This document shows, one piece after another, positions 880 to 17,063 of a stretch of 32,000 nt of DNA. Where the stretch lies: NCBI RefSeq assembly GCF_003231495.1, contig NZ_PQWO01000007.1:60001-92000 (forward strand), written 5' to 3'. The notes under the pieces were generated by a model. That model made no database searches and was not told where the DNA came from. It worked only from the letters and a program-made list of their open reading frames with translations. Every line of letters begins with the position of its first letter. Position 1 is the stretch's first letter. Both the position numbers and the translations under genes were made by a program. Source of the stretch: Acaryochloris thomasi RCC1774 (GTDB lineage Bacteria; Cyanobacteriota; Cyanobacteriia; Thermosynechococcales; Thermosynechococcaceae).

Positions 880-889
880 TTGAGCGTAA

Positions 890-1581: not shown

Positions 1582-4500
1582 GTGCGCACCATTTCTATCC
1601 CTGAGCAGGGTCAGCTAGTCGATGTTCGTCAGAGTCGCTTTGTTGTTACAGATATAAAGAAGATGCAACTGCCTGCACTTCTTGCGACGTCTGGCCCACA
1701 GGCATCTCAACATTTAATTACACTGTCTTCGGTTGAGGATGATGCGCTGGGTCAAGAGCTTCAGGTGATTTGGGAGCTGGAGCCTGGGGCTCGTGTGTAT
1801 GAGAAAGCTGAGCTACCAGAGCCGACGGGGTTTGATCGGCCTGAGTGGTTGGACGCATTTTTGGATGCGGTGAGGTGGGGAGCGGCTTCGGTGGCGGATG
1901 TACGAAATGTGCAGTCACCGTTTCGCAGTGGAATAGATATTGAGGATTATCAGCTTGATCCTGTGGTGCGGGCGGTGCAGATGCCTCGGGTGAATTTACT
2001 CATTGCGGATGATGTGGGCTTAGGCAAGACAATTGAAGCGGGGTTAGTGGCCCAAGAGCTGATGCTTCGGCAGCGGGCCAGGCGGATTTTGATTGTTTGT
2101 CCGTCGTCTTTGCAGGTGCAGTGGCAAGAGCAGATGCAAAGTAAGTTTGGGCTCGATTTTCGCATCGTAAATAGTGAGCTGATGAAGGGATTGCGTCGGC
2201 GCAGGGGAATTCACGTGAATCCTTGGGGGCATTTCCCGAGGCTGATTACGTCGGTTGATTTTATAAAGCGAGATCGCCCTCTACGTCTGTTTCGCGAAAT
2301 TCTCCCGGCTGAGGGCGAATCGCTGTATCCCCGACGGTTTGATTTGATGATTGTGGATGAGGCTCATAACGTTGCCCCTTCGGGCAGCGGTAAGTACGCT
2401 ATTGATTCGCAGCGGACGGCGGCAATTCGACTGCTAGAGCCGCATTTTGAACACAAGCTATTTTTGACGGCGACGCCACATAATGGTTATCCCGAGAGCT
2501 TTACGGCGCTGCTAGAGCTGTTGGATGCACAGCGGTTTGCCAGAGGTGTCTCACCGGATCCCAAGCAGCTACAAACCGTGATGATCAGACGGCTGAAGCA
2601 GGAACTGCCGCCGGATGATTTTGGTAAACCCCGTTTTCCTGAACGGACGCTGGAGGCGATCGCAGTCAACTACACGACAGAAGAACGCCAAGCCCACCAG
2701 TGGCTAAAGGTTTATACGGAATTACGGCGGCAGGGCGCAAAGGATAATCTGACGGAGCTGTATGCAACTGAGTTTGTGCTAAAGCTGTTGAAGAAGCGGT
2801 TGTTTTCGTCACCGGAGGCGTTTCGGACGACGCTGTTGCAGCATCAGAAATCTTTGCGAGGAGAGAACTCTGAGAAAAAACGCGTGGCTAAGCCCTCCGC
2901 TGAGATTCTTCGCCGTCAGCTCGAACAGGTGGACGAGGCGTTTGCGGATGATGCTGTGTATGAAGAGGCGACGGATGATGCGATCGCAACTTCCACCCGC
3001 TTATTTCATGCAGTTACCGTTGCTGAACAACAACTGCTGAATCAAATGCAAGATTGGGCAGATCAGGCATCACGGCTGCCTGATGCAAAGGCTCAAGAGC
3101 TGCTGGACTGGATTGCGACCGTTTTACGCCCCGAAGGGAAGTGGGGCACAGAGCGGGTGATTATCTTTACAGAATATCGGGCAACCCAGAAATGGCTTTT
3201 TGATCTGTTGGCGAGCGAGGGCTTAGCCAGCGAGGAGAAACTGATGACCCTGTATGGCGGCATGGACTCCAAAGATCGAGAAAAAGTGAAGGCGGCATTT
3301 CAGGCAAACCCGGCGATTTCACCGGTGCGGATTTTGCTGGCGACGGACGCGGCCAGTGAAGGGCTTGATTTGCAGAATCACTGTTCGCGACTGATTCATT
3401 ATGAAATTCCGTGGAATCCGAATCGGATGGAGCAGCGTAATGGTCGGATCGACCGGCACGGGCAGCGAGCCTCGGCGGTGCAGATTTATCACTTTGTAGG
3501 GAGGGGGTTTGAGCAGGTGGCCCTACAGGCGACTCCGGGCAGCAAGCCGGGAGAACTAGAGGGCGATCTGGAGTTTTTGATGCGGGCCGCGCTCAAGGTG
3601 GATACCATCCGTGAGGATTTGGGCAAGGTGGGGCCGGTAATTGCAAGTCAGGTAGAAGAGGCGATGCTGGGGCGGCGGGGTGCTTTGGACACGGCGATAG
3701 CGGAGCAGGAGGCGCAGCCGCTCAGACGACTGATGAAGTTTGAACGGTCGGTACGCGATCGTATTGAACAGCTCAAAGAACAGCTAGGTGAAACGCGTCG
3801 AGACCTACGGCTAACGCCAGAAAATATCACAGCCGTGGTGAAAATTGGGCTAGAGCTGGCAGGGCAGCCGGAGCTGTTGCCGACAGAGGTTCCGGGCTTG
3901 GGCGGTGAGGCTTATCAATTGCCTGCTCTGCAGGGAAGCTGGGCGAATTGCTCGGAGGGGTTAGCGCATCCCCACACCGAAGAGATTCGTCCCATTGTGT
4001 TTGACCCAGATTTGGCGCGGGGGCGCGATGGGGTGGTGCTGGTGCACCTGAATCATCGGTTGGTGCAGATGTGTTTACGACTGCTGCGGGCAGAGGTGTG
4101 GTCGCGCCAAGACAGCAGCAAGCTGTACCGGGTGACGGTGCGGCCGGTACCCACTGCAACGCTTGACCATCCGGTGGTGATTGCCTACGGTCGGCTGGTG
4201 GTGCTCGGTGGCGATCAGCAGCGGTTGCATGAGGAGATTATCACGGCGGGCGGTGAGCTAAAGGAAGGACGATTTAGTCGGTTGAATGTGGGGCAGATCA
4301 AGGCGGCGCTGGACGCGGCTCAGCAAATAAGAGGCCGTGAGGCGGTGCCGGAGCGCATTGAAACAACGCTACAGGAGGCTTGGCCGGGACATCAGGAGGC
4401 TTTGTTGAGATCGCTTCAGGTGCGGATGGACGATCGCACCCAAGGTTTGCAGAAAAAGCTAGCCGAACGCTGCGCAAAGGAAGTGGCGGATATGACGGCA

Positions 4501-4752
4501 GTGCTGACTGAACTGCGCCAGCAGATTATCCGTGAGCTAGATGAACCCGAAGTCGAGCAAATGGAGCTGTTTAGCAGTGTAGAAAAGGACCAGCTTGAGC
4601 GAAACTTGAGCAGTTTGCGGCTGCGAATAGAACAGATTCCGCAGGAGATAGAGCAAGAAGCAGACATTATTAAAGCGCGATTTGCCCAGCCCACGCCAAG
4701 GCTGTTTCCGCTGGCGGTAGCCTATTTGGTGCCTCAGAAGTTAATTAAGTGA
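1582..4752 (+). CDS. drmD: DISARM class 1 DrmD, SNF2-family helicase/ATPase
   Basis: 1056-aa ORF with a GTG start. SNF2 motifs are visible: DDVGLGKT (I), LMIVDEAHNV (II), LFLTATPHNG (III), ILLATDAASEGLDLQ (V), QRNGRIDRHGQ (VI). Sits in a locus with drmMI, drmA, drmB and drmC. Confidence 0.85.
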   Translation: MRTISIPEQGQLVDVRQSRFVVTDIKKMQLPALLATSGPQASQHLITLSSVEDDALGQELQVIWELEPGARVYEKAELPEPTGFDRPEWLDAFLDAVRWGAASVADVRNVQSPFRSGIDIEDYQLDPVVRAVQMPRVNLLIADDVGLGKTIEAGLVAQELMLRQRARRILIVCPSSLQVQWQEQMQSKFGLDFRIVNSELMKGLRRRRGIHVNPWGHFPRLITSVDFIKRDRPLRLFREILPAEGESLYPRRFDLMIVDEAHNVAPSGSGKYAIDSQRTAAIRLLEPHFEHKLFLTATPHNGYPESFTALLELLDAQRFARGVSPDPKQLQTVMIRRLKQELPPDDFGKPRFPERTLEAIAVNYTTEERQAHQWLKVYTELRRQGAKDNLTELYATEFVLKLLKKRLFSSPEAFRTTLLQHQKSLRGENSEKKRVAKPSAEILRRQLEQVDEAFADDAVYEEATDDAIATSTRLFHAVTVAEQQLLNQMQDWADQASRLPDAKAQELLDWIATVLRPEGKWGTERVIIFTEYRATQKWLFDLLASEGLASEEKLMTLYGGMDSKDREKVKAAFQANPAISPVRILLATDAASEGLDLQNHCSRLIHYEIPWNPNRMEQRNGRIDRHGQRASAVQIYHFVGRGFEQVALQATPGSKPGELEGDLEFLMRAALKVDTIREDLGKVGPVIASQVEEAMLGRRGALDTAIAEQEAQPLRRLMKFERSVRDRIEQLKEQLGETRRDLRLTPENITAVVKIGLELAGQPELLPTEVPGLGGEAYQLPALQGSWANCSEGLAHPHTEEIRPIVFDPDLARGRDGVVLVHLNHRLVQMCLRLLRAEVWSRQDSSKLYRVTVRPVPTATLDHPVVIAYGRLVVLGGDQQRLHEEIITAGGELKEGRFSRLNVGQIKAALDAAQQIRGREAVPERIETTLQEAWPGHQEALLRSLQVRMDDRTQGLQKKLAERCAKEVADMTAVLTELRQQIIRELDEPEVEQMELFSSVEKDQLERNLSSLRLRIEQIPQEIEQEADIIKARFAQPTPRLFPLAVAYLVPQKLIK

Positions 4753-5661: not shown

Positions 5662-8600
5662 ATGTCTACTGCTCGTCATCACGCTGAATGGTTATCGCTG
5701 GTTGAGGCTTCGGGGCCGTTTGTGAGTATGCCGGTGCTGCTGAAGGCGTTTCCGCAGGGGCTGGATGCCCACGACCCAGAGGTGATGCGGCAGGTGCGGT
5801 TAGCCCACAGCGAATGGCAAGCCAGTCAGCAGGGGACTGCGCCGGATCGGGGCATTCATGGGGCGTGGGTGGCGTTTGTGCTGCAGGAGGTGTTGGGCTT
5901 TCCGGAGAGTGTGCTGCTGAATGGGCAGGCGGTGCCGTCGGCCCTGGCGGTGACGGTGGCGGAGCAGGGGGAGACGCTGCGGCCTGATTGGGGGGTGGTG
6001 CAGGAAAATAATACGCGGCTGCTGGTGCAGGTATATCCGCCGGGGCAGGATTTGAATAAGGCCGTCAAAGGATCGCGGTGGGCAGCGAGTGCGGCGACGC
6101 GGATGATGGAGCTGCTGCACGGTACGGATGTGCGGCTGGGTCTGGTGACCAATGGGGAGCACTGGCTGCTGGTGAATGCACCGAAGGGAGAAGCGACGGG
6201 CTATATCTCTTGGTACGCGACGCTGTGGCAGGAGGAGAAGCTGACGCTGCGGGCGTTTCGGTCTTTGCTGGGGGTGGAGCGATTTTTTGGGGTTGACGAA
6301 TCGGAGACGATTGAGGCGCTGTTAGCTGAGAGCATCAACTCTCAGCAGGAGGTGACCGACCAGCTCGGCTTTCAGGTGCGCTCTGCGGTGGAAGTGCTGG
6401 TGCAGTCGATTGACCGGGCCGATCAAGATCGGAATCGGGCGCTGCTGGCTGGGTTGCCGGAGACGACGCTCTATGAGGCGGCGCTAACGGTGATGATGCG
6501 GCTGGTGTTTTTGTTTTCGGCGGAGGAGCGGGGGCTGCTGCTCTTGGGCGATCCGGTGTATGACCAGTTTTATGCGGTGAGTACGCTGCGAGAGATGCTG
6601 CGGGAGCAGGCAGATCAGAGCGGGGAGGAGATTTTAGAGCGTAGGTATGATGCATGGTGTCGGCTGCTGGCGATTTTTAGAGCGGTGTATGGCGGCATTG
6701 GGCATGAGGCGCTGCGGCTGCCTGCCTATGGTGGGACGCTGTTTGACCCGGACCGGTTTGCGTTTTTAGAGGGGCGGGCGGCGGGCAGCCGCTGGCAGCG
6801 GGTCGAGGCGAGGCCGATTGAGATCAACAATAGAACGGTGCTGCACTTGCTAGAGGCGCTGCAGTTGCTAGAGGTGCAGATGCCGGGGGGCGGGGGCAAG
6901 GTGTCTCGTAAAATCTCTTTCCGGGCATTGGATATTGAGCAGATTGGGCACGTGTATGAGGGGTTGCTAGACCATACGGCGGTGCGGGCAACAGAGCCGA
7001 TTTTAGGATTGGTGGGGACGAAGAATAGGGAGCCGGAGGTGGCGCTGGGGGCCTTCGACGCCGCTCAGACCTCGGGTGAGCTGCTGAAGTTGCTGAAAAA
7101 GGAGACGGGGCGGAGCGAGTCTGCTTTGCAGAAGGGGTTGGGGGCAGCGGCAGGCGGGACGGCTATCTCACAGGAGTGGAGTGCGTATGAGTTGAGTCGG
7201 CTGCGGGTGGCTTGCGGAAATGATGAGGCGCTGTATGCGCGGGTGCTACCGTTTGCGGGGCTGTTGCGGCTGGATACGTTTGGCTACCCGGTGGTGATTG
7301 CGGGGGGGAGCGTGTATGTGACGCAGGGGAGTGACCGGCGCGATACGGGGACGCACTATACGCCGCGTAGTCTGACGGAGGAGATTGTGAAGTATACGCT
7401 GGAGCCGCTGGTGTATGTGGGGGTGGCGGAGGGGAAGCCGAAAGAGAGGTGGAGGCTGCAGAAAGCGTCGGCGCTGCTGAGCCTGAAGGTGTGCGATATG
7501 GCGATGGGGAGCGGGGCGTTTTTGGTAGAGGTATGCCGGTATCTATCAGCGCGGCTGGTGGAGGCTTGGGAAAGCGCAGAGGCGCAAGAGGTAAGAAGGA
7601 CAGGCAGGATGCCTATCTCACAAGAGGGGGTTGGGGAAGAGGGATTGGAGGTTGCTGAAAAGGGGCAAGAAATTAGAGTGTTGCCGGATGGGTCTCTTTC
7701 TGTGGGAGATGCGGCAGAGCGATTGTTGCCTGCTGACCCAGAGGAACGACTGATTATGGCGCGGCGGCTGGTGGTGGATCGGTGCATTTATGGGGTGGAT
7801 AAGAATCCGCTGGCGGTGGAGATGGCGAAGCTGTCGCTGTGGTTAATTACGCTGCAAAAGAATAAGCCGTTTACGTTTTTAGACCATGCGCTTCGGTGTG
7901 GGGATTCGCTGGTGGGGGTGAGTGTAGAGCAGCTCTGCTACTGGAATATGGATACCTATGAGACAATGCCGGAGCTGTTGGCGAGCAGTATTCGGGCGCA
8001 GGTGGAGGAGGTGTCGCAGATGCGGCGGCAGCTAGAGAATATTTCGGTGGAGACGACGGCGGATCAGGCTGAGAAGGAGCGGCGGCTGGGGCTGGCGCAA
8101 ACGCGGGTGAACGGGCTGCTGTTGGGGGCGGATCAGCTTGTGACGAGCTATTTTGTTTCGAGTAAGAAGAGTCGTCAGGATGATGTGCGGCAGATTATGC
8201 TGCGGACGTATCGGGGTGAGGGGGATGTGCCGGAGGCGCTGCGGGGGGTGCTAGAGAAGCATAATGTGCGGCCTTTTCATTGGGAGCTGGAGTTTCCGGA
8301 GGTGTTTGCGGAGGGGGGTGGGTTTGATGCGATCGTGGGGAACCCACCGTTTCAGGGTGGGCAGAAGATTACGGGTGCGTTGGGAACTGTCTATAGAGAC
8401 TTTTTAGTGAGACAGATTGCGGCAGGGGTGAGGGGAAGTGCGGATTTGTGTGCGTACTTTTTCTTGCGGGCAGATGAAGAGCTGCGAGTAGATGGCGGGA
8501 TGGGGTTGATTGCAACAAACACAATTGCACAGGGAGATACGCGGGAGGTGGGGCTAGATCAGCTTGCGGCAAAGGGGCGGGCGATACCTCGGGCGGTGCC

Positions 8601-9810
8601 GAGCCGGAAGTGGCCGGGGAGCGCGAATTTGGAGGTGGCTCATATTTGGGTGAAAAAGGGAAAGTGGGCAGGCGGCTTTGAGCTGAATGAGAAGTTAGTG
8701 GAGGGGATTACGCCGTTCTTGACGGTTCCGGGGCAGGCGGTGGGCAATCCTGAGCGGTTGGCGGCGAATCAGGAGAAGTCTTTTCAGGGTTCAATCGTTT
8801 TAGGCATGGGTTTTGTTTTAGAGCCAGAAGAGGCTGAGGCGTTGATGGAGAAAGATGCTCGCAACGCGGATGTGTTGTTTCCTTATTTGAATGGACAAGA
8901 CTTGAACTCACACCCGGATCAGTCGCCGAGTCGTTGGGTGATTAATTTCTTTGATTGGCCTTTGGATGCTGAGCATGATGATCTGGAAAAACCGAAGGGG
9001 CCACCCTATGCGGTGGACTATCCTGATTGTTTGGCGATTGTGCGGGAGAAGGTGAAGCCTGAGCGGGATAAGAATAAGCGGAAAGTTCGCCGCGAGAAAT
9101 GGTGGCAATTTGCAGAAAGAGCGGCAGGGCTTTATGGGGCGGTTGAGGGTTGCGATCGCGTTTTGTTAAGAGCGAGAATTTCCAATATCCATTCAGTCAC
9201 ATGGGTGGCTGATAACTGGGTCTATAACGAGAAAGTTGTTGTCTTTCCCAATTCTTCTCTAGCCATTCTTCAATCCAGCATTCATGAGGTATGGGCTAGA
9301 AGATACAGCTCGAGCTTGAGAAAAGATATGCAATATACGCCGTCTGATTGTTTTGAAACCTTCCCCTTTCCCACCCAATACAGCAACCTAGAAGACATTG
9401 GCGAACGCTACTACACCCACCGCCAATCCATCATGCGCACAACCAACCTCGGCCTCACCAAAACCTACAACCGCTTCCACACCCCCGAAGACACCGCCCC
9501 CGACATCACCCAACTCCGCACCCTCCACACCGAAATGGACTCCGCCGTCGCTGCCGCCTACGGCTGGCAAGACTTCGCTCTAAATCACGACTTCCATGAA
9601 ACCAAACAAGGGCTGCGATTTACCATCAGCGAAGCCGCCCGCCGCGAAGTCCTCGATCGCCTGCTGGCGCTGAACCATGAGCGCTATGCAGAAGAAGTAA
9701 AGCTGGGACTGCACGATAAGAAAAAGAAAAAAAGAAAGAGGGCGAAGGCGAAAAAGGCAGCACCTCGCAAAGAAGCACCGCCAGACGATCAGATGAAGCT
9801 GTTCTTGTAG
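5662..9810 (+). CDS. drmMI: DISARM class 1 DrmMI, large N6-adenine DNA methyltransferase (PglX/type IIG-like)
   Basis: SAM motif VCDMAMGSGAFLV. Catalytic motif IVGNPPFQGG (NPPF, N6-adenine class). Helix YGVDKNPLAVEMAKLSLWL. ATG at 5662 (MSTARHHAEWL...) is preferred over the TTG at 5593 given in the ORF track. Lys/Arg-rich C-terminal tail. Confidence 0.85.
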   Translation: MSTARHHAEWLSLVEASGPFVSMPVLLKAFPQGLDAHDPEVMRQVRLAHSEWQASQQGTAPDRGIHGAWVAFVLQEVLGFPESVLLNGQAVPSALAVTVAEQGETLRPDWGVVQENNTRLLVQVYPPGQDLNKAVKGSRWAASAATRMMELLHGTDVRLGLVTNGEHWLLVNAPKGEATGYISWYATLWQEEKLTLRAFRSLLGVERFFGVDESETIEALLAESINSQQEVTDQLGFQVRSAVEVLVQSIDRADQDRNRALLAGLPETTLYEAALTVMMRLVFLFSAEERGLLLLGDPVYDQFYAVSTLREMLREQADQSGEEILERRYDAWCRLLAIFRAVYGGIGHEALRLPAYGGTLFDPDRFAFLEGRAAGSRWQRVEARPIEINNRTVLHLLEALQLLEVQMPGGGGKVSRKISFRALDIEQIGHVYEGLLDHTAVRATEPILGLVGTKNREPEVALGAFDAAQTSGELLKLLKKETGRSESALQKGLGAAAGGTAISQEWSAYELSRLRVACGNDEALYARVLPFAGLLRLDTFGYPVVIAGGSVYVTQGSDRRDTGTHYTPRSLTEEIVKYTLEPLVYVGVAEGKPKERWRLQKASALLSLKVCDMAMGSGAFLVEVCRYLSARLVEAWESAEAQEVRRTGRMPISQEGVGEEGLEVAEKGQEIRVLPDGSLSVGDAAERLLPADPEERLIMARRLVVDRCIYGVDKNPLAVEMAKLSLWLITLQKNKPFTFLDHALRCGDSLVGVSVEQLCYWNMDTYETMPELLASSIRAQVEEVSQMRRQLENISVETTADQAEKERRLGLAQTRVNGLLLGADQLVTSYFVSSKKSRQDDVRQIMLRTYRGEGDVPEALRGVLEKHNVRPFHWELEFPEVFAEGGGFDAIVGNPPFQGGQKITGALGTVYRDFLVRQIAAGVRGSADLCAYFFLRADEELRVDGGMGLIATNTIAQGDTREVGLDQLAAKGRAIPRAVPSRKWPGSANLEVAHIWVKKGKWAGGFELNEKLVEGITPFLTVPGQAVGNPERLAANQEKSFQGSIVLGMGFVLEPEEAEALMEKDARNADVLFPYLNGQDLNSHPDQSPSRWVINFFDWPLDAEHDDLEKPKGPPYAVDYPDCLAIVREKVKPERDKNKRKVRREKWWQFAERAAGLYGAVEGCDRVLLRARISNIHSVTWVADNWVYNEKVVVFPNSSLAILQSSIHEVWARRYSSSLRKDMQYTPSDCFETFPFPTQYSNLEDIGERYYTHRQSIMRTTNLGLTKTYNRFHTPEDTAPDITQLRTLHTEMDSAVAAAYGWQDFALNHDFHETKQGLRFTISEAARREVLDRLLALNHERYAEEVKLGLHDKKKKKRKRAKAKKAAPRKEAPPDDQMKLFL

Positions 9811-9931
9811 AGATTGCTCTAATCAACTCACACACAAGGGGACCGCGAGTGGCTTCTCTGTATAAACAAAAATTTATTTTGCTAGCGGTATCAAATTGGG
9901 GGGCAGGGAGGCGAATGCAGGGAGTGGTAGG

Positions 9932-10279
9932 TCAGAGTTCGATGGTCTGACGCTGCGAATAGATTTCTTTTACCAACAAATCCCGAAGCTCTTCAGCAAT
10001 ATCATTCGGTGGATTACCGGCAAGCGCTCGTCCAATCAAACGCTCTGCCTCTCTAAATGCACCAGATGCGATCGCAAGTGCAGCCGCACTACGATGCAGT
10101 ACCGCGCGAGTCGGCTCAAGGTCAAACTGATCAGCCACCAAATCAGCCGCCGCCCGCTCTTTCTCAAAAGCAGCTCTTGCCAGCTCAACAACGCGGTTTT
10201 TCTCGCCCTGCCGTCTGGCGAGTACCGCCAGATCAACCAGTTCCATCGATTCTTTATGAAGCGTTTCTACGTCCTGCAT
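9932..10279 (-). CDS. Hypothetical all-helical protein, 115 aa, TPR-like feel
   Basis: Its ATG overlaps the end of upstream ORF 10267-10632 by 13 nt. Ala/Glu/Arg/Leu-rich helical sequence (AAALAIASGAFREAERLIGRALAGNPPN). I recognise no family. Confidence 0.55.
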   Translation of the reverse strand: MQDVETLHKESMELVDLAVLARRQGEKNRVVELARAAFEKERAAADLVADQFDLEPTRAVLHRSAAALAIASGAFREAERLIGRALAGNPPNDIAEELRDLLVKEIYSQRQTIEL

Positions 10280-10632: not shown

Positions 10633-10638
10633 CGCATC

Positions 10639-11036: not shown

Positions 11037-13151
11037 ATGTCCTTTGAGCTGCTCTACAAGCCCACCTTCACCAACCAGCTCCTCACTATTCCTCAAGATC
11101 GTCTTCGTCAGGTTTTAGAAAAAATTGAACTCCTGCGCGAAAACCCCAAACCCCACGGCAAACTTAAGAAAAAGCTCCACGGCTACAAAGGCAACATTTA
11201 CCGCCTGCGCTCCGGCGATCAGCGCATCATTTACACCTACGGTAACGGCTGGGTTGCTCTCCTTGGGGTAGATGCGCGCAAAGATGTGTACAAAGGCGAT
11301 AAGCTGGTCGCGGGTGAAACCGAGCTAGACACCAGCAGTCTGCCAGACATGCAGGATTTGCTCACGCCAACGCCCGCTCCGCCTACAGCTCAGAGAAAGC
11401 CCACCGTAGAGCAACTTGAAAACTACCTCCCGGTGCAGCTCACGCCAGATTTTCTCAAGCGGCTGCTGGTGCCCGCCCAGTTTTTTGACGCTCTCACCGC
11501 CTGCAAAACCCTCGACCATCTCACCAGCGCTGCCATTCCTGAACCCTTGCGTGAGCGCGTTTTCGATGCCGTCACCACGCCCAACTTCGACCAGGTTCTC
11601 AGCCAGCCCGACCTAATTGCAGGCGCTGATGAACTGCTCAAGTTCAAAGAAGGTAACCTGCTCGGTTTTTTACTGAAGCTCAATCCTGAACAAGAAAAAT
11701 ATGTGACCTGGGCCATTAAGTCCAAAGGCCCTACTCTGCTGAAGGGTGGCCCCGGCACTGGCAAAAGCACCGTCGCCCTCTATCGCGCCCGCGAAGTCCT
11801 CGATCGACTTAAGGCCGAAGGCGTTGCTCGGCCCAAAATCTTGTTCACCACCTATACCAATGCCTTGGTGAAGTTTTCGCAGCAGCTTCTGACCCAGCTT
11901 CTTGGTACAGATGCTAAATTCGTCGATGTCAAAACCGCCGACAAAATCGCCTATGCCCTGGTCGTGAAGGCCACCGGCAAGCCTGCGATCGCCAGCAGTA
12001 CCCAGCAAAAACGACTGCTGAAGTCAGCTCTGGTAGATGCGATCTCATCTCTCCCTGGCAATCGCCTCCAGCAGCAGGCCCAGCGGCTCATTCTTCAGCG
12101 GCTCCATCCCGACTACCTGCTTGAAGAACTCAACAGCGTCATCACGGCCAGAAACCTACAATCCCTGGCCGATTATGAATCCACCTCTCGCAGCGGACGT
12201 CGCGTTCGTCTCAACAAAACCCAGCGGCAAGCCGTCTGGCATTTGCATCAGCACTTTACTCAGCAGCTCAGCGAACAGTCTATAGAAACCTGGCCCCAGT
12301 TGCGCAACCGAGCGCTGAAAATCTTAGCGGCTAGCGATACGCCGCTGGTATACGACGCCGTTATCATCGACGAAGCTCAAGATTTAGAGCCGAATGCGCT
12401 GCGGCTGCTTGCCCAGCTCTGCCGCCAGCCCAATCGCCTCTTCATCACCGCCGATGCCAACCAGTCCATTTACGGTAGTGGATTCCGCTGGGCCGATGTG
12501 AGTGAATCACTGAAGTTTGTGGGGCGTACCGGCATTCTGCGCGTCAACCACCGCACCACCCAAGAAATTGATGCCGCCGCCCATAATTATCTGTACGACG
12601 GCAGCTTAGATAATGAAACTCTGGAGCCACAGTACATTCACAGCGGGCCACCGCCCGCCATTCGTGCAGTGCGCGATCGTGAACAAGAAAGCTACCTGCT
12701 GGCCCAGTTTTGCCGCGCTGCCGCCCGCGAATTTCGCTTGGGCATGGGCGCTTGTGCCATTCTCACCCCCAGCGATAAAGCAGGTAAGGCCCTCGCCGAT
12801 CAGCTCTGCTACCTCGGTGTAGAAAGCCACTTTATGGCCAGCAAAGATCTTGATCTCAACCGCAAAGGGGTGAAGGTGTTGCCACTCAAAGCGGCTAAAG
12901 GATTGGAGTTTCCGATAGTTGCGATCGCAGGCTTCTTTGACGGTGTCTATCCCTACATTCCCAAAGGCACCTCAGACCTCGAAATTCAAGAAATTTTGGC
13001 CCGCGAACGCCGCACCCTCTTTGTGGCCATGACCCGCGCCATGCGAGCGTTACTGGTTGTGGTTCCCGCCGCTCGGCCTCAGCGCAAGCCCAGTCCGTTA
13101 CTACAGTCCTTTGACTCTGACTTTTGGAATTTGGGAAAGACCGACGCATGA
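11037..13151 (+). CDS. Fusion protein: N-terminal RelE/ParE-family toxin-like domain plus SF1 UvrD/Rep-like helicase
   Basis: Residues 1 to about 88 (MSFELLYKPTFTNQL...LRENPKPHGKLKKKLHGYKGNIYRLRSGDQRIIYTYGNGWVALLGVDARKDVYK) match the RelE/ParE toxin pattern. Helicase motifs follow: LLKGGPGTGKST (I), VIIDEAQDL (II), FITADANQSIYG (III), LRVNHRTTQEI (IV), KAAKGLEFPIVAIAG (V), LFVAMTRAMRAL (VI). TGA 13149-13151 overlaps the drmA ATG. Confidence 0.85.
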   Translation: MSFELLYKPTFTNQLLTIPQDRLRQVLEKIELLRENPKPHGKLKKKLHGYKGNIYRLRSGDQRIIYTYGNGWVALLGVDARKDVYKGDKLVAGETELDTSSLPDMQDLLTPTPAPPTAQRKPTVEQLENYLPVQLTPDFLKRLLVPAQFFDALTACKTLDHLTSAAIPEPLRERVFDAVTTPNFDQVLSQPDLIAGADELLKFKEGNLLGFLLKLNPEQEKYVTWAIKSKGPTLLKGGPGTGKSTVALYRAREVLDRLKAEGVARPKILFTTYTNALVKFSQQLLTQLLGTDAKFVDVKTADKIAYALVVKATGKPAIASSTQQKRLLKSALVDAISSLPGNRLQQQAQRLILQRLHPDYLLEELNSVITARNLQSLADYESTSRSGRRVRLNKTQRQAVWHLHQHFTQQLSEQSIETWPQLRNRALKILAASDTPLVYDAVIIDEAQDLEPNALRLLAQLCRQPNRLFITADANQSIYGSGFRWADVSESLKFVGRTGILRVNHRTTQEIDAAAHNYLYDGSLDNETLEPQYIHSGPPPAIRAVRDREQESYLLAQFCRAAAREFRLGMGACAILTPSDKAGKALADQLCYLGVESHFMASKDLDLNRKGVKVLPLKAAKGLEFPIVAIAGFFDGVYPYIPKGTSDLEIQEILARERRTLFVAMTRAMRALLVVVPAARPQRKPSPLLQSFDSDFWNLGKTDA

Positions 13152-16100
13152 ACATCATCCAGCTCCCGGCCCAGCTCCCTGGCGTTCTCAACCTCAGCGC
13201 CGTTAATCAGCAGCTTAGAACCCACGCCGCTCAGCTAGACTGGAGCGCCGTTGTTAACCCTGAAGGGCCGCAGTTGGCTCAGTTGCTCGCGGGGTTAGAT
13301 CTCTCTGACCATGCGGAAAGCTTGGGCTTAGATACAGTTCTGGCAGATGAGCTGGGCGATGCGATCATGGCCTATTTCGACCAGGCCGATCCGCCTCCTG
13401 AACCCCCTAAGAAGAAAGCTACCGCGCCAGGTAGTGCGCTCACGCCAGAAGTCTGGCAGCAGCAGGAGCTATTCGAAGCAGAGCCGCTACAGCTACCCCC
13501 AATTAGAACCGCCTCTCAAGCAGACAAAACAATTGACCTAGATTTCTACGAAGAACAGCCTGCAGAAGCGGTTCCCGATCGCATTTTGCAGGCTTTCACG
13601 CCCTATCAGATTCGGCAGGAGCTTGAAGCTAGGGTCGTCAAAGATCTCTTGGGACCAGCCCAAGGCCCTCAAGAAGAACTTGATGTCGATCGGGTGAGCG
13701 ACCGCTACTTAGTCGGGCTATTGGCCCCTCAAAAGCGAGACCGTGAGGCTCCAATTGACGCTCTTTTAGAACTACAGGATCCACTAGAAGTTGCCGGAAT
13801 AGAAACCATCGAAGACGGCAGCAGCGAACAGACCCGCACCGCCACCAAGACTATCTTTCCCTCTTCTTTGGGGATGACCTTCTGCGTGAGTCACGAAGCT
13901 GAAGCGATTTACGTTATCGCCGGATGGGGCCAATATGAGCGCACTAAAGGCGAATATCAAGAAACCGATAAAGGCAACCCTAAACTAATCTGGAAGCGCT
14001 ACCCCATTCGCAAACAGTCCCCATCCATTCCCCTGCGCGCAGGCACTCTCACGGACTGGCGTATTCATGAAGACTTCGCCGTCTTTGTAAAAGGCAAAAT
14101 TCGCCGCCAGCAAGGCTGTTGGATGATCTCGTTGTTTTTGGTCAATGATCGCACTGAACCCGAAAAGCACGCCGATAGTGCTTGGCTTTTTCAACCTGAG
14201 CTTTCGGTGAAATCGGCAACAGAACAAACAGATATCTTTCTCAAAAAGCCCCATCGCCGCTCTGCTGACCACAAGCTAGATCCGGTTTACTATGGCGAAG
14301 AGCAAATGATGAATATGCTCTATCGTCAGCAGGTCGAGTTTGCCGTTGGTCACGGTGTCGGCGTTCATGCAAGCGTTTTACCAAACGATCCGACTCGGGC
14401 AACTCAGCTCGCAACTACGGTGGTTCCCGTTTCTGAAGTGCCAAAGTCTACGCCGCCCACAGCCGCAGAAGAGCCTGCCTTAAAGGGCTTAGTGCTAGAG
14501 ATGAAAGTGCTTGCGGGGCTAATGCCCGACGCTTTGCCCGATCAGCTAGCGGCTTTGCCGATGGCCTATGAGCAATGGATACAGGGGCAGCGTGATCGCT
14601 TAACGGACCCTGATGAGGGATTAGAAGACTATCAAAGCAGTGCGCATGAGGCGCTGGAAAAGTGCGATCGCGCCCTGGCTCGTATCCGGGCAGGCATCGA
14701 AACCCTACGCACTAACCCCCAAGCCGCTCGCGCCTTTCTGTTTATGAACCGGGCCATGTATCTGCAGCGAGTGCGCTCTATTTATTCCAGCAAAAAAAGG
14801 CGTGGGGAGGCGATCAACCTAGATGCCATAGATTCGCCGAAGTGGTACCCCTTTCAGCTCGCCTTTATTCTGTTGAACTTGCCGAGCACCACCGATCTGA
14901 CGCATCGCGATCGCTGCCATCCGACTGAAGCTATGTCAGACCTGCTTTGGTTCCCGACAGGCGGTGGTAAAACCGAAGCTTATCTTGGCCTTGCAGCCTA
15001 CACTATTGGTCTTCGCAGGCTTCAGGGCACCATCGCCGGACGTTCAGGGGCCGCAGGAGTTGCCGTGCTCATGCGCTACACCCTCAGGCTGCTCACCTTA
15101 CAGCAGTTCCAGCGAGCCACCGTCCTCATCTGTGCCTGTGAGGTGATCCGCCGTGAAGACGTAGAAACCTGGGGTGAAGAGCCTTTTCGCATTGGCCTGT
15201 GGGTAGGGATGAAAACTACTCCAAACCGAACGCAAGACAGCGAGGCTTACGTCGAAGCGCTCAAGGCTCGCAGCCTGCCACCCAGTGGTGGCTCCCCCCA
15301 TCAGCTCACGAGCTGCCCCTGGTGCGGAACCGAGATTGATGAAGGCAGACACATCAGCGTGAGTTCCTTCAAAAAAGGTAAAGCCCGCACCCTCGTTCAC
15401 TGTGGCGATATCCTTGGGCACTGTCCCTTCAGCCGCAAGCAAGCTAAAGAAGAAGGTCTGCCGGTCGTAGTCGTCGATGAAGAGATTTACCGGCGGCTGC
15501 CGATCCTGCTGATTGCCACCGTTGATAAGTTTGCTCAAATGCCCTGGAAAGGTGAAACGCAGATGCTCTTTGGACGGGTGAATGGGTATTGCGATCGCCA
15601 CGGTTATCGCTCTCCTGAAATTGAAGATAGCGACAGCCATCCAGCTAAATATGGCTTGCCCAAAGCCATGACTAAATCAATCAACAATCTTCGCCCGCCC
15701 GATCTGATTATTCAAGATGAATTGCACTTGATTAGTGGCCCCTTGGGCACCCTCGTTGGCCTATACGAAACCGCCATCGACCAGCTCGCTTCCTGGGAAA
15801 TAGACGGCAAAACAGTCCGGCCCAAGGTAATTGCCTCCACTGCAACGATTCGGCAGGCACAGTCTCAGATGCACGATCTCTTTTTGCGAAAAGTAGACGT
15901 GTTCCCACCTCAGGGGTTAGACATTAGCGACAACTTTTTCTCTCGCCAGCGCTCCCCCGGTGAAGACTACCCCGGCAGAAGGTATTTAGGGATTTGTGCC
16001 ACAGGACGCCGCCTAAAAGCCGCCACTATCCGCGTCTATACCGCGATACTTGCCGCCTCCCAAGATATGTTTGAGCGAGCCGGTGACAAGGCCGATCCGT

Positions 16101-17053
16101 GGATGACTCTGGTGGGCTACTTCAATTCCATGCGAGAACTAGGCGGCACCCGCCGACTCATAGACGATGACATTCAGCAGCGCCTCAACAAAATGGATCG
16201 GCGTGGACTCTCTAACCGCCGTCAGCTGATGGTCGAAGAACTCACCTCCCGAAAATCTTCAACGGATATTCCTAAGGTGCTCGACTGGATGGAAACCCCT
16301 TTCGTCGGTGAGCGAAAGCGCAGTAAAGATCGCCCCACCCCTCTTGATGTGTTGCTCGCCACTAACATGATTTCAGTCGGAGTAGACGTGGGCAGGCTGG
16401 GCATCATGGCCGTCACTGGTCAGCCCAAAACCACCGCCGAATACATTCAATCTACGTCCCGAGTTGGGCGTCAGCACCCCGGTCTTGTTGTCACTATCTT
16501 CAACTGGGCTAGACCCAGAGATCTTTCTCACTATGAGCGATTTGAACACTATCATTCCACGTTCTATCAGCATGTAGAAAGTCTTTCTCTCACGCCTTTC
16601 TCCCCGGGGGCAACCGATCGCGGCTTAGCGGCGCTGCTTGTGTCTCTCGTCCGGCTGAATAATGAAGAATACAATCTCAATAAGTGGGCTAGCCGCATCC
16701 GCCGAGATGATCCCTATATTCAAACCGCCATTCAACAAATTGTAGAGAGGGCTTGGCACGTGAGCGGCGATCCTGCTGTGCGAGATTTTGTGCAGCGCGA
16801 ACTCGACCATCGCCTAGACTACTGGCTCGCCCAAGCTCAAGATACTGAGGGCGGCAAAGAACTCGGCTATAAAACAGCCAAAGATGACGTTACCCTTGGC
16901 TTGCTGGAGCAACCTGGCAGTGAGGGATTGCAGCCGTTTACGTGCCTTAATTCCTTGCGCAATGTAGAACCTGCCATTGGCCTCATTCTCAATCCACAGG
17001 TTCCTGACGACGATACCAGCAGCCCCCCTCAGCCCATGCCCGTAACACCTTAA
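13148..17053 (+). CDS. drmA: DISARM DrmA, SF2 DEAD/DEAH-type helicase with a large N-terminal region
   Basis: Walker A FPTGGGKTEAYLG. DExH box IIQDELHLISGPLG. Motif VI YIQSTSRVGRQHPG. Immediately followed by a DUF1998 gene. ATG at 13148 (ATGA overlap with the upstream stop) is preferred over the TTG at 13124. Confidence 0.88.
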   Translation: MNIIQLPAQLPGVLNLSAVNQQLRTHAAQLDWSAVVNPEGPQLAQLLAGLDLSDHAESLGLDTVLADELGDAIMAYFDQADPPPEPPKKKATAPGSALTPEVWQQQELFEAEPLQLPPIRTASQADKTIDLDFYEEQPAEAVPDRILQAFTPYQIRQELEARVVKDLLGPAQGPQEELDVDRVSDRYLVGLLAPQKRDREAPIDALLELQDPLEVAGIETIEDGSSEQTRTATKTIFPSSLGMTFCVSHEAEAIYVIAGWGQYERTKGEYQETDKGNPKLIWKRYPIRKQSPSIPLRAGTLTDWRIHEDFAVFVKGKIRRQQGCWMISLFLVNDRTEPEKHADSAWLFQPELSVKSATEQTDIFLKKPHRRSADHKLDPVYYGEEQMMNMLYRQQVEFAVGHGVGVHASVLPNDPTRATQLATTVVPVSEVPKSTPPTAAEEPALKGLVLEMKVLAGLMPDALPDQLAALPMAYEQWIQGQRDRLTDPDEGLEDYQSSAHEALEKCDRALARIRAGIETLRTNPQAARAFLFMNRAMYLQRVRSIYSSKKRRGEAINLDAIDSPKWYPFQLAFILLNLPSTTDLTHRDRCHPTEAMSDLLWFPTGGGKTEAYLGLAAYTIGLRRLQGTIAGRSGAAGVAVLMRYTLRLLTLQQFQRATVLICACEVIRREDVETWGEEPFRIGLWVGMKTTPNRTQDSEAYVEALKARSLPPSGGSPHQLTSCPWCGTEIDEGRHISVSSFKKGKARTLVHCGDILGHCPFSRKQAKEEGLPVVVVDEEIYRRLPILLIATVDKFAQMPWKGETQMLFGRVNGYCDRHGYRSPEIEDSDSHPAKYGLPKAMTKSINNLRPPDLIIQDELHLISGPLGTLVGLYETAIDQLASWEIDGKTVRPKVIASTATIRQAQSQMHDLFLRKVDVFPPQGLDISDNFFSRQRSPGEDYPGRRYLGICATGRRLKAATIRVYTAILAASQDMFERAGDKADPWMTLVGYFNSMRELGGTRRLIDDDIQQRLNKMDRRGLSNRRQLMVEELTSRKSSTDIPKVLDWMETPFVGERKRSKDRPTPLDVLLATNMISVGVDVGRLGIMAVTGQPKTTAEYIQSTSRVGRQHPGLVVTIFNWARPRDLSHYERFEHYHSTFYQHVESLSLTPFSPGATDRGLAALLVSLVRLNNEEYNLNKWASRIRRDDPYIQTAIQQIVERAWHVSGDPAVRDFVQRELDHRLDYWLAQAQDTEGGKELGYKTAKDDVTLGLLEQPGSEGLQPFTCLNSLRNVEPAIGLILNPQVPDDDTSSPPQPMPVTP

Positions 17054-17063
17054 ATATTGAGCG

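What the first reader, a model, noticed from the sequence alone, without database searches (positions are those of the whole stretch)
8750..9810. Abrupt codon-usage switch inside the drmMI ORF suggests a recombination junction and a mosaic DISARM
Codon usage read directly from the sequence:
- drmD and the first 3.1 kb or so of drmMI use overwhelmingly G- or T-ending codons: GCG, CCG, GTG, CTG, GGG, ACG, CGG, GAG, CAG, GAT, TTT.
- From about 9355 to 9700 the same ORF switches to C-ending codons and to GAA/CAA: ACC, CCC, CGC, CTC, GCC, GAC, TAC, CAC.
- A more AT-rich transition zone lies at about 8750-9350.

The C-ending regime is the one used by the RelE-helicase gene, drmA, drmB, drmC and flanking host genes such as the GT9 and CPBP genes. 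The G-rich 5' part of drmMI (5662 to about 9100) also contains no HIP1 site, although the window averages about one per 1.5 kb.

Inference: the drmD-TA-drmMI(5') block has a different evolutionary origin from the rest. It was joined by recombination within the 3' part of the methyltransferase gene, which amounts to swapping the modification or specificity module onto a resident drmABC core.
Basis: seen in the sequence. Interest (0 to 1): 0.65.

Follow-up and report, generated by a model that had tools for sequence, protein, structure and literature searches.

The report
Conserved codon-bias flip in drmMI
The abrupt codon-usage switch inside this cyanobacterial defence methyltransferase gene is real, but it is not the scar of a recent gene fusion: every cyanobacterial relative examined has the same pattern, and it starts exactly where the enzyme's swappable DNA-recognition module ends.

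Summary
At 4-fold sites the drmMI body has G 0.72 / C 0.07. A 303-nt island (9358-9660) has G 0.04 / C 0.84. The last ~150 nt return to G>C.

- The island is not host-like sequence joined to a foreign 5' block. It has the same nearest relatives as the body.
- drmD/drmMI and helicase/drmA/drmB identities co-vary across loci.
- The layout (G/T-ending body, AT-rich zone, C/A-ending island) recurs in all 21 cyanobacterial drmMI genes in the main alignment, in a conjugative-plasmid copy and in a lineage only 36% identical. Host GC does not matter, and synonymous sites are saturated.

What is mosaic is the AT-rich zone. It is the target recognition domain (TRD), and its two sub-domains are exchanged between alleles. 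Breakpoints lie at about 9020 and about 9350. The 3' edge recurs in many allele pairs and coincides with the start of the island and with the boundary between the TRD and the C-terminal helical bundle.

The cause of the bias is unresolved. Evidence favours a pressure on nucleotide composition (amino versus keto bases), possibly linked to recombination at the TRD. Selection on translation speed is the main rival.

The parts
5662..9810 (+). drmMI coding sequence (class 1 DISARM N6-adenine methyltransferase, MmeI-like). The real start is ATG 5662, not the upstream TTG at 5593.
   Evidence: The PADLOC DrmMI profile PDLC02643 matches residues 24-1393 of the 1405-aa ORF in one colinear stretch. Pfam finds Eco57I, MmeI_Mtase and MmeI_TRD. 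Homologues and the database protein P0001 (1382 aa) start at MSTARHH.
5662..8750 (+). drmMI body: the N-terminal region plus the methyltransferase domain, encoded with G/T-ending codons.
   Evidence: 4-fold G 0.72, C 0.07. T-ending codons dominate 2-fold pyrimidine boxes (71%) and G-ending codons dominate 2-fold purine boxes (82%). G3-C3 is positive in nearly every 30-codon bin in distant cyanobacterial alleles. The GNPPF motif at residues 893-897 aligns to the MmeI methyltransferase.
8764..9372 (+). Target recognition domain (TRD). This is the AT-rich 'transition zone'. TRD-N is about 8764-9020 and TRD-C about 9021-9372. It is hypervariable and exchanged between alleles.
   Evidence: The 3' boundary is fixed by alignment of SDCFETFPFP to MmeI ...YNTFPW at about residue 825. 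The 5' boundary is extrapolated from MmeI residue 620. A GC3 trough occurs here in all phyla. Identity to the closest relative falls to 0.28-0.47 at residues 1140-1240. TRD identity is uncorrelated with backbone identity. Sub-domains are shuffled independently. Tree topology changes here.
9335..9372 (+). Recurrent 3' recombination edge of the TRD cassette. It coincides with the TRD / C-terminal bundle domain boundary and with the codon-regime flip.
   Evidence: DNA identity jumps from about 0.4-0.6 to 0.87-0.98 at query residues about 1225-1232 in L005/L007, L005/L008, L007/L008, L010/L013 and L010/L035. In Q/L001-L003 it recovers over the same residues, but only to about 0.73-0.78 at first. 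The island starts at 9358. The FETFPFP motif ends at residue 1237, which is nt 9372.
9358..9660 (+). C/A-ending codon island, which encodes the conserved C-terminal helical bundle.
   Evidence: 4-fold C 0.84, G 0.04; no G-ending codons in 2-fold purine boxes. It is the only conserved sign reversal along the gene: no distant cyanobacterial lineage (0 of 10-11 scored) has G3>C3 in any bin from residue 1231 to 1350. The region aligns to MmeI residues 826-883. It is the least structured stretch as RNA, at -0.16 kcal/nt. It has the highest DNA identity and the longest exact matches among diverged alleles.
9661..9810 (+). Lys-rich C-terminal tail and stop codon. Codon usage returns to G3>C3.
   Evidence: G3 0.42 / C3 0.15 in Q, with the same return in relatives. 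The alignment shows a low-complexity K-rich tail.
1582..4752 (+). drmD (SNF2 helicase). It shares the G/T-ending regime in weaker form.
   Evidence: PADLOC DrmD. 4-fold G 0.48 / C 0.17. The same holds in related loci.
11037..19743 (+). UvrD-like helicase, drmA, drmB and drmC. Their C>G codon usage is host-like, and they share their history with drmD/drmMI.
   Evidence: PADLOC and Pfam. 4-fold C 0.28-0.51, G 0.18-0.24. Their identities to relatives co-vary with the drmMI body.

Best explanation
**What the interval contains.** The interval covers the 3' third of an intact class 1 DISARM methyltransferase gene. This part of the gene has three pieces.
1. The AT-rich zone (about 8764-9372) is the target recognition domain (TRD). 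Its two sub-domains are cassettes that homologous recombination exchanges between drmMI alleles.
2. The C-ending island (9358-9660) encodes the conserved C-terminal helical bundle, which begins immediately after the invariant SDCFETFPFP motif.
3. A short Lys-rich tail follows.

**What the codon switch is.** It is not a seam between foreign and resident DNA. It is a conserved feature of the family. The body uses G/T-ending (keto) codons and the C-terminal bundle uses C/A-ending (amino) codons. The flip sits at the domain boundary that is also the recurrent 3' edge of TRD swaps. Synonymous sites are saturated between alleles that share the layout, and the layout holds in hosts with very different GC content. 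So it must be actively maintained.

**Most likely cause (inferred, not shown).** The pressure acts on nucleotide composition with a strand polarity centred on the recombining TRD. After a break in or near the TRD, the two 3' single-strand tails would be the + strand on the left and the - strand on the right. Both are G/T-rich, which is the composition RecA prefers. The polarity would then be either selected because it favours cassette replacement, or a mutational footprint of repeated single-strand exposure, since deamination converts amino bases to keto bases.

**Shown:** the anatomy, the conservation, the recombination edges and the congruent history of body and island.

**Inferred:** the cause of the bias.
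For: **Anatomy.** PADLOC and Pfam assignments. The family profile aligns colinearly to MmeI 5HR4, with FETFPFP opposite the published boundary between the TRD and the C-terminal bundle.

**Conservation.**
- In 21 of 21 cyanobacterial genes, mean 4-fold GC skew is +0.50 in the body and -0.70 in the island. In 42 of 54 non-cyanobacterial genes the same contrast is weaker (-0.02 versus -0.25).
- The island is the only conserved reversal along the gene.
- The layout recurs in copies on annotated conjugative plasmids and in a 36%-identical Calothrix gene, where C3 jumps from 0.06-0.12 to 0.58 exactly at SDCFQTFPFP.
- The same-codon fraction is about what chance predicts in distant pairs, so composition is maintained while sequence is not.

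**Recombination.** TRD identity is uncoupled from backbone identity; Microcoleus L005/L007 are 94% identical in the backbone and 33% in the TRD. Breakpoints are sharp, and the 3' edge recurs at the start of the island. Sub-domains are mosaic. Topology changes along the gene.

**Same history for body, island and the other modules.**

**Pressure on nucleotides rather than on tRNA decoding.**
- In AT-rich hosts the island's 4-fold sites run C > A >> T ~ G (GCC 33 versus GCT 6, CGC 35 versus CGT 3).
- The synonymous first position of Leu shifts as well.
- Codon positions 1 and 2 shift in the same direction.
- Codon choice does not depend on residue conservation.

**Polarity.** The cumulative GC skew of the locus is Lambda-shaped with its apex near 9300. 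Minus-strand genes to the right of drmMI have sense G3-C3 >= 0 in 8 of 8 lineages, and the effect decays with distance.

**RecA.** RecA prefers TGG/GT-rich, Chi-like single strands (PMC3763553).

**Precedent.** PglX and DrmMI are known to vary a middle region between constant termini (PMC9881135).
Against: **Against the recombination-linked cause.**
- In this window's body, CTG still outnumbers TTG (0.56 versus 0.23). C is therefore not simply avoided at synonymous first positions.
- Simple cytosine deamination predicts enrichment of T at 4-fold sites. G is what is enriched (0.72 versus T 0.10).
- The few intergenic stretches do not visibly follow the polarity. I judged this by inspecting the sequence and did not quantify it.
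- The polarity in flanking genes is weak, about 0.1, and shows no gradient on the left side.
- The island's DNA identity exceeds what amino-acid identity predicts by only +1.25 SD.
- No oriented Chi-like oligomer was detected.
- The tests on positions 1 and 2 compare one clade with the rest, so their p-values are inflated.

**Still open.** C/A-ending and G/U-ending codons also correspond to Watson-Crick-read and wobble-read codons. A translation-speed explanation is therefore not excluded.
Confidence: 0.62

Rival explanations
1. A foreign drmD-TA-drmMI(5') block with G-ending codon usage was recently joined, by recombination inside the 3' part of drmMI, to a resident C-ending drmMI tail and drmABC core.
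For: drmD and the drmMI body differ strongly in codon usage from the helicase, drmA, drmB and host genes. A recombination edge does lie at about 9350. There is no HIP1 site at 5662-9151.
Against: Body and island share the same nearest neighbours at the same identity. The layout is present in 21 of 21 cyanobacterial alleles and in a 36%-identical lineage. The tail after 9660 returns to G>C. The island's C 0.84 far exceeds resident genes at about 0.4. Module identities co-vary, and L002 is 83% identical in the drmMI body against 82-89% in helicase, drmA and drmB. The G-rich sister allele L001 carries six HIP1 sites in drmMI, four in the body.
Confidence: 0.04
2. Selection on translation kinetics. 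The body is built from wobble-read (NNG/NNU) codons, which keeps DrmD and DrmMI synthesis slow or low. The C-terminal helical bundle is built from Watson-Crick-read (NNC/NNA) codons, so it is translated fast, for example to complete folding after the TRD.
For: The bias is overwhelmingly at third positions and splits exactly into C/A-ending versus G/U-ending codons in all degeneracy classes. The flip coincides with a protein domain boundary. The tail leaves the regime. C-ending 2-fold codons are reported as putatively optimal in Synechococcus elongatus (PMC3825069).
Against: Conserved residues show no enrichment of Watson-Crick-read codons. Codon positions 1 and 2 and the Leu first position also shift. 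The S. elongatus list also names G-ending codons as optimal for Leu, Ser, Pro and Thr. Selecting for non-optimal codons across more than 2000 codons would need unusually strong selection. Flanking minus-strand genes follow a strand polarity, not a gene-specific rule.
Confidence: 0.22
3. Homology-arm convention. Every TRD swap must cross over in the short conserved 3' segment. Alleles therefore keep one extreme codon convention there, which maximises DNA identity between diverged alleles and hosts. The particular choice of C/A-ending codons is arbitrary.
For: The island windows rank first in nucleotide identity (0.71-0.72) and in longest exact run (20-21 nt against 10-17 elsewhere) across 55 diverged allele pairs. 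The convention is independent of host GC. The 3' arm is only about 450 nt long, while the 5' arm is more than 3 kb.
Against: The gain over what amino-acid identity predicts is small, at +0.03 or 1.25 SD. It is a second-order (evolvability) selection. It does not explain why the body uses the opposite convention, or why drmD is biased.
Confidence: 0.08
4. An RNA-level element. The unstructured, C-rich and G-poor segment of about 300 nt acts on the transcript, for example as a Rho-type loading site or another protein-binding or stability element near the 3' end of drmMI.
For: The island is the least structured stretch as RNA, at -0.16 kcal/nt against -0.27 to -0.33 elsewhere. Its composition matches the C-rich, G-poor signature of rut sites described in PMC12642595.
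Against: Cyanobacteria, where the feature is strongest, lack Rho (PMC12642595). There is no Rfam match. There is no specific complementarity to the body or the 5' region. Synonymous sequence is not conserved beyond composition.
Confidence: 0.04

Closest known systems
MmeI (Type IIL restriction-modification enzyme; PDB 5HR4) domain architecture
   Same: The order is colinear: gamma-class N6-adenine methyltransferase, then a two-lobed TRD, then a C-terminal helical bundle. The FETFPFP motif aligns to MmeI ...TFPW at the TRD/bundle boundary. Pfam finds MmeI_Mtase and MmeI_TRD.
   Different: DrmMI is much longer (1382 aa against 919 aa) and sits in a DISARM operon. Nuclease activity and motifs were not examined. 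No codon-regime feature has been described for MmeI.
TRD 'domain movement' and allelic TRD exchange in Type I, Type IIG and Type III methyltransferases (Furuta and Kobayashi; PMC3983042)
   Same: Discrete TRD homology groups are spread incongruently over conserved backbones. Exchange occurs through conserved flanking sequence. The likely outcome is a change of methylation specificity.
   Different: Here the gene is a DISARM drmMI in cyanobacteria. Exchange occurs between genomes and even phyla, not within Helicobacter pylori. The flanks carry opposite, conserved codon regimes, which has not been described.
Programmed inversions that swap the middle of PglX/DrmMI between constant termini (Milman et al. 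2023; PMC9881135)
   Same: The architecture is the same: a constant N-terminus, a variable middle and a constant C-terminus. That paper also describes a PglX naturally split exactly where the variable region ends.
   Different: This window has no silent TRD copy, no meaningful inverted repeats and no adjacent recombinase. Variation here is between genomes, not within a genome by phase variation.
Class 1 DISARM (Ofir et al. 2018; the Serratia system in bioRxiv 10.1101/2021.12.28.474362)
   Same: The gene set is drmD, drmMI, drmA, drmB and drmC.
   Different: This locus has extra inserted genes: a HicB/PIN pair, three small ORFs and a UvrD-like helicase. The methylation motif is unknown.
Replication- or transcription-associated strand compositional asymmetry (G+T excess on the exposed strand)
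   Same: The bias lies on the same amino-versus-keto axis, and the cumulative GC skew is Lambda-shaped.
   Different: The scale is a single gene and an 18-kb locus, not a replichore. The amplitude is far larger (4-fold G 0.72 against C 0.07). The apex is tied to a protein-domain boundary that is conserved across hosts and replicons.

Membership tests
Class 1 DISARM | Core genes drmA (helicase), drmB (DUF1998) and drmC (PLD) are present | tested here: met
   PADLOC finds DrmA, DrmB and DrmC with E-values from about 0 to 1e-122. Pfam finds MZB/DUF1998 and PLDc_2.
Class 1 DISARM | drmD (SNF2 helicase) and drmMI (N6-adenine methyltransferase) are present | tested here: met
   PADLOC scores 1435 bits for DrmD and 1806 bits for DrmMI.
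Class 1 DISARM | Anti-phage activity and methylation of a host motif | not testable with these tools
   This needs phage challenge experiments and methylome sequencing.
MmeI-like (Type IIL/IIG) methyltransferase architecture | Gamma-class N6-adenine methyltransferase with an NPPF/Y catalytic motif | tested here: met
   GNPPF at residues 893-897 is invariant in the family and aligns to MmeI residues 477-575.
MmeI-like (Type IIL/IIG) methyltransferase architecture | A TRD followed by a C-terminal helical bundle | tested here: met
   Pfam MmeI_TRD. The family profile aligns to MmeI residues 756-883, spanning the 825/826 boundary.
MmeI-like (Type IIL/IIG) methyltransferase architecture | N-terminal PD-(D/E)XK endonuclease | not tested
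   The N-terminal 550 residues matched PADLOC REase_MTase_IIG models. The nuclease motif was not examined.
Allelic TRD exchange (domain movement type) | TRD similarity is incongruent with backbone similarity | tested here: met
   Spearman 0.14 for the TRD core against the body. L005/L007 are 94% identical in the body and 33% in the TRD. P0002 is 87% in the backbone and 43% in TRD-C; P0004 is 82% and 74%.
Allelic TRD exchange (domain movement type) | Sharp identity breakpoints at conserved flanks, and a topology change along the gene | tested here: met
   DNA identity profiles. Four-taxon site heterogeneity, p=0.0012.
Allelic TRD exchange (domain movement type) | An identified donor: a near-identical TRD on a different backbone | tested here: not met
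   The best TRD-C match to this window is 74% (P0004). A search with the TRD alone returned only fragments of 64% identity or less. Near-identical backbones with different TRDs do exist among Microcoleus alleles.
Programmed-inversion shufflon of PglX/DrmMI | Inverted repeats, a silent TRD copy and a nearby recombinase | tested here: not met
   tblastn finds no second copy, and only short chance-level inverted repeats are present.
Rho utilisation (rut) site | An unstructured, C-rich and G-poor RNA of at least about 80 nt | tested here: met
   The minimum G fraction in the whole window (0.115 per 200 nt) is at 9331. Folding energy is -0.16 kcal/nt.
Rho utilisation (rut) site | The host encodes Rho | tested here: not met
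   By literature only: cyanobacteria lack Rho (PMC12642595). The host genome itself could not be searched.
Recently acquired foreign segment (compositional island from horizontal transfer) | The segment has different nearest relatives from the adjacent sequence | tested here: not met
   The body, the island and drmA/drmB give the same relatives at similar identity.

The most novel reading that the evidence does not exclude
Cyanobacterial DISARM drmMI genes carry a built-in recombination architecture. The swappable TRD is bracketed by coding sequence whose synonymous (and partly non-synonymous) sites are held in opposite strand polarity. Both 3' single-strand tails made after a break at the TRD are then G/T-rich, which RecA prefers. 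Codon usage would in that case be shaped by selection for cassette replacement (evolvability of defence specificity), or would be a measurable mutational footprint of it, and not by translation or by host mutation bias.
Probability: 0.2. Interest if true: 0.85.

Novelty: new variant of a known kind. Interest (0 to 1): 0.55.

Why it matters
**For annotation and horizontal-transfer inference.** This is a clear case where an extreme intragenic change in codon usage is not evidence of chimerism. Compositional methods would call it wrongly.

**For defence-system biology.**
- DISARM specificity modules are exchanged as sub-domain cassettes between alleles, replicons (including conjugative plasmids) and even phyla.
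- The 3' crossover edge is fixed at the boundary between the TRD and the C-terminal bundle. That gives a natural junction for engineering DrmMI or PglX specificities.

**For molecular evolution.** A flip in codon regime of about 100 codons persists in lineages with saturated synonymous sites and very different GC content. That implies a strong, position-specific force on synonymous sites. If the force is linked to recombination, it would show selection, or a mutational signature, acting on codon choice for reasons unrelated to translation.

Tried and rejected
- **Rfam scan of 8000-11200, both strands, permissive threshold:** no match.
- **Promoter and terminator scan of 8600-11100:** nothing above the shuffled controls.
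- **Silent TRD copies and inverted repeats (shufflon):** none found.
- **Overlapping antisense gene:** the 60-aa minus-strand ORF at 9388-9570 is made of GNN codons, a by-product of sense NNC codons. Rejected.
- **Internal start producing a separate C-terminal protein:** no conserved Met near the boundary.
- **Selection to minimise mRNA structure:** the body is not less structured than other genes.
- **Specific long-range pairing between island and body:** codon-order shuffles pair as well or better.
- **Oriented Chi-like oligomer:** not found. The top over-represented word was HIP1 itself.
- **Signature of a mobile gene pool:** plasmid backbone genes in L081 do not share the regime.
- **Palindrome (restriction-site) avoidance through strand skew:** a back-of-envelope estimate gives only about 25% depletion. 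Judged too weak; not tested formally.
- **Transcription-driven asymmetry from convergent downstream genes:** some loci (L002, L009) lack convergent genes but keep the island. The downstream ORFs are also less skewed than the island. Judged unlikely.
- **Single-sequence search of the PDB:** no hit. A family profile was needed.
- **Search of the large protein database with the TRD alone:** returned only short fragments, so it was uninformative about donors.
- **An earlier reading of my own, now corrected:** I first concluded that the G/T-ending regime follows gene sense. The analysis of flanking genes revised this to a strand polarity that flips at the TRD.
Full report
**Context.** The window carries a complete class 1 DISARM locus from a cyanobacterium that contains HIP1 repeats.
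- drmD lies at 1582-4752.
- A HicB/PIN pair lies on the minus strand at 4819-5459.
- drmMI lies at 5662-9810. The listed ORF starts at a TTG at 5593, but homologues and the database protein start at ATG 5662.
- Three small unassigned minus-strand ORFs lie at 9932-10836.
- A UvrD-like helicase lies at 11037-13151, drmA at 13124-17053, drmB at 17064-18929 and drmC at 18907-19743.
- DrmMI matches one PADLOC DrmMI profile colinearly over residues 24-1393 of the listed ORF. The flagged 3' part is therefore ordinary, homologous DrmMI sequence and not a fused foreign domain.

**Check of the observation.** The switch is real and extreme.
- GC skew is about +0.3 to +0.46 from 5700 to 9000 and turns negative after about 9100.
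- In 50-codon windows, G3 is 0.5-0.8 and C3 is 0.02-0.2 through the body. At 9343-9642, G3 is 0.02-0.08 and C3 is 0.64-0.80.
- Separating degeneracy classes removes effects of amino-acid composition. At 4-fold sites G/C goes from 0.72/0.07 to 0.04/0.84. C-ending in 2-fold pyrimidine boxes goes from 0.29 to 0.83. G-ending in 2-fold purine boxes goes from 0.82 to 0.00.
- Host-type genes sit at about 0.2/0.4, 0.5 and 0.5 on those three measures.
- The best C3-rich segment is 9358-9660. Its score is 39.75, against a maximum of 6.0 in 2000 permutations.

1. The gene returns to G3>C3 after about 9660, so this is an island and not a one-way junction.
2. The island is far more C-biased than the 'resident' genes it was compared with.
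3. The absence of HIP1 from the body is not significant. About 2.3 sites are expected, so P(0) is about 0.1.

**Is the switch a chimeric seam?** I fetched 80 related loci with DNA, codon-aligned them and profiled each one.
- The layout of G-rich body, low-GC3 zone, C-rich segment at query residues about 1231-1330 and G-rich tail is present in every cyanobacterial homologue. These range from 83% to 53% protein identity.
- At 4-fold sites only, mean GC skew is +0.50 in the body and -0.70 in the island in 21 of 21 cyanobacterial genes. In non-cyanobacterial genes it is -0.02 and -0.25, with the body skew exceeding the island skew in 42 of 54.
- The island is the only conserved sign reversal along the gene. 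From residue 1231 to 1350, no distant cyanobacterial lineage (0 of 10-11 scored) has G3>C3 in any bin.
- The same flip occurs in an annotated DISARM locus on the conjugative plasmid pOSC7112.01.
- It also occurs in a second DISARM lineage only 36% identical, in AT-rich Calothrix. There C3 jumps from 0.06-0.12 to 0.58 exactly at the SDCFQTFPFP motif.
- Between distant alleles, the fraction of identical codons at identical residues equals the chance expectation. Synonymous sites are therefore saturated, and only the composition is maintained.
- Body and island have the same nearest neighbours at the same identity. L001 is 0.88/0.86 in the body and 0.85 in the island. L002 is 0.83 and 0.81. L003 is 0.84/0.76 and 0.84.
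- Across loci, identity of the drmMI body to Q co-varies with DrmD (rho 0.76), DrmA (0.72), DrmB (0.70) and the helicase (0.94). L002 is 83% identical in the drmMI body and 82-89% in helicase, drmA and drmB.
- The sister allele L001 is equally G-rich and has six HIP1 sites in drmMI, four of them in the body. HIP1 is the most over-represented word in drmMI bodies, at 18 observed against 1.5 expected.

The model of a foreign 5' block joined to a resident 3' block and drmABC core is therefore not supported.

**What is mosaic.** The AT-rich 'transition zone' is the part with a separate history.
- Identity of Q to its closest relative is 0.93-1.0 at residues 880-1080. It falls to 0.28-0.47 at about 1140-1240 and recovers to 0.75-0.95 in the island.
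- Over all pairs, identity at residues 1131-1235 is nearly uncorrelated with backbone identity (Spearman 0.14). Microcoleus alleles L005 and L007 are 94% identical in the backbone and 33% identical there.
- DNA identity profiles show sharp edges. The 5' edges vary (about residues 870, 1000 and 1120). The 3' edge falls at about residues 1225-1232 in many independent pairs, which is where the island begins.
- TRD types are distributed in a patchwork. Q's core resembles Microcoleus L007 and the planctomycete L017. Another type is shared by the cyanobacterium ESFC-1 and Pseudomonas fluorescens.
- Within the close clade, the two halves are shuffled separately. P0002 is 87% identical in the backbone, 91% in TRD-N and 43% in TRD-C. 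Synechococcus PCC 7335 is 82%, 74% and 74%.
- Four-taxon informative sites change topology between 8661-9020 (Q+L001 leads 21:3:6) and 9021-9357 (Q+L003 has 25 against 11 and 15). Heterogeneity across regions has p=0.0012. Body and island both give a plurality for Q+L001.
- No near-identical donor TRD was found.
- There is no silent copy or inverted repeat that would indicate a programmed-inversion shufflon.

**Mapping to protein domains.** A family profile aligns colinearly to MmeI (5HR4). The invariant ...SDCFETFPFP motif lies opposite MmeI ...YNTFPW at about residue 825. The published MmeI domains are methyltransferase 301-620, TRD 621-825 (two sub-domains) and C-terminal helical bundle 826-919. 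So the AT-rich zone is the TRD (about nt 8764-9372; the 5' limit is extrapolated). The island is the C-terminal helical bundle. The codon flip at 9358 lies within about five codons of the domain boundary at 9372. Constant termini around a variable middle are already documented for PglX and DrmMI under programmed inversion, including a PglX split exactly at the end of the variable region. Exchange of TRDs through conserved flanks is documented in Helicobacter pylori.

**What maintains the two codon regimes?**
- *Evidence for a pressure on nucleotide composition along an amino (A/C) versus keto (G/T) axis.*
  - In AT-richer hosts the island's 4-fold sites run C 0.47-0.63 > A 0.18-0.36 >> T 0.03-0.13 ~ G 0.05-0.14. 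GCC outnumbers GCT 33 to 6, and CGC outnumbers CGT 35 to 3. The body is the mirror image.
  - The synonymous first position of Leu also shifts.
  - Codon positions 1 and 2 shift in the same direction in cyanobacterial alleles relative to non-cyanobacterial ones. The cyanobacterial alleles form one clade, so those p-values are inflated.
  - Codon choice does not depend on residue conservation: 0.30 versus 0.30 in the body and 0.77 versus 0.84 in the island. That argues against selection for translational accuracy.
- *Evidence for a strand polarity.*
  - The cumulative GC skew of the locus is Lambda-shaped with its apex near 9300.
  - Flanking genes follow a strand polarity and not a gene-sense rule. 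Minus-strand genes to the right of drmMI have sense G3-C3 >= 0 in 8 of 8 lineages, while those on the left are mixed.
  - The C-richness of the + strand on the right decays with distance.
  - These flank effects are small, about 0.1.
- *The leading hypothesis.* The geometry means that a break at the TRD would leave G/T-rich 3' tails on both sides. RecA prefers TGG/GT-rich, Chi-like strands. I therefore rank a recombination-linked polarity, either selected or left as a mutational footprint, as the leading cause, but with low confidence.
- *Evidence against it.*
  - G, not T, is the base enriched at 4-fold sites.
  - CTG exceeds TTG in this window's body.
  - Intergenic stretches do not visibly follow the polarity. 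I judged this by inspection only.
  - No oriented oligomer was found.
  - The island's excess DNA identity is only +1.25 SD.
- *The main rival.* This is selection on translation speed, because C/A-ending codons are the Watson-Crick-read set and G/U-ending codons the wobble-read set. Literature support for calling the island 'optimal' is only partial.
- *Explanations rejected.*
  - RNA-level explanations are weak. The island is the least structured RNA in the region and resembles a Rho loading site, but cyanobacteria lack Rho. There is no Rfam match and no specific pairing partner.
  - There is no conserved internal start codon.

**Verdict.** Real recombination edges lie at about 9020 and about 9350, and the specificity module is mosaic. 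However, the codon regimes themselves are conserved features of the family and do not mark foreign versus resident origin. TRD exchange is a known kind of event. The conserved, oppositely polarised codon regimes bracketing the TRD appear not to have been described (I found no report, though I ran no literature search aimed specifically at this), and their cause remains open.

Noticed in passing
window 9932-10279, 10267-10632 and 10639-10836 (minus strand): Three small ORFs (115, 121 and 65 aa) are convergent with drmMI. They have no Pfam, NCBIfam or PADLOC family; the first gives only a sub-threshold TPR hint. They use G/T-ending codons in their own sense (G3 0.29-0.34, C3 0.11-0.14). Related loci often have other convergent genes at this position, such as XisH/XisI in the Microcoleus and Oscillatoria loci.
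   Followed up: partly
window 9642-9662 and 11789-11809: There is a 20-of-21-nt match (18 nt exact) between the 3' end of the drmMI island and the UvrD-like helicase gene. Both copies encode REVLDRL with the same codons and contain the HIP1 core CGATCG. It could be chance, convergence or a micro-conversion.
   Followed up: no
window 1-20000 (whole DISARM locus): The cumulative GC skew is Lambda-shaped. It rises from about 1500 to an apex near 9300 and falls until about 19800, then stays flat over the host genes. In related loci, flanking genes on both strands follow this polarity weakly.
   Followed up: partly
window 4819-5459 (minus strand): A HicB-like antitoxin and a PIN-domain toxin are inserted between drmD and drmMI. 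Related loci carry different small inserts at this position: a 573-aa ORF in L001, an ORF of about 210 aa in Microcoleus loci and minus-strand ORFs in L012.
   Followed up: no
window 11037-11366: The N-terminal ~110 residues of the UvrD-like helicase give only a sub-threshold ParE/RelE-superfamily match (E=0.009, 17 bits against a cut-off of 23).
   Followed up: partly
drmMI query residues 187, 725 and 745 (window about 6220, 7834 and 7894) and the same columns in relatives: The octamer CGCTGTGG recurs at the same alignment positions in diverged cyanobacterial alleles: 15 observed against 2.2 expected under synonymous shuffling. This points to codon-level conservation at (x)-Leu-Trp motifs beyond the general bias.
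   Followed up: partly
L081 (Oscillatoria nigro-viridis PCC 7112 plasmid pOSC7112.01), L082 and L083: Class 1 DISARM loci sit on large conjugative cyanobacterial plasmids (MOBP or MOBF relaxase, MPF_T mating-pair type). In L081, drmB is followed by dnaN, dnaX and holA where drmC would be expected.
   Followed up: partly
window 23954-25915 (+): A 653-aa ORF has markedly low GC (0.38-0.45) and T-ending codons (T3 0.37). It is compositionally unlike its neighbours and may be a separate acquisition.
   Followed up: no
window 9152 and the same column in L001, L002 and L012 (also query residue 1160 in L004, L009, L010, L014 and L075): A HIP1 site recurs at nearly the same position inside the otherwise hypervariable TRD-C region in many cyanobacterial alleles.
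   Followed up: no
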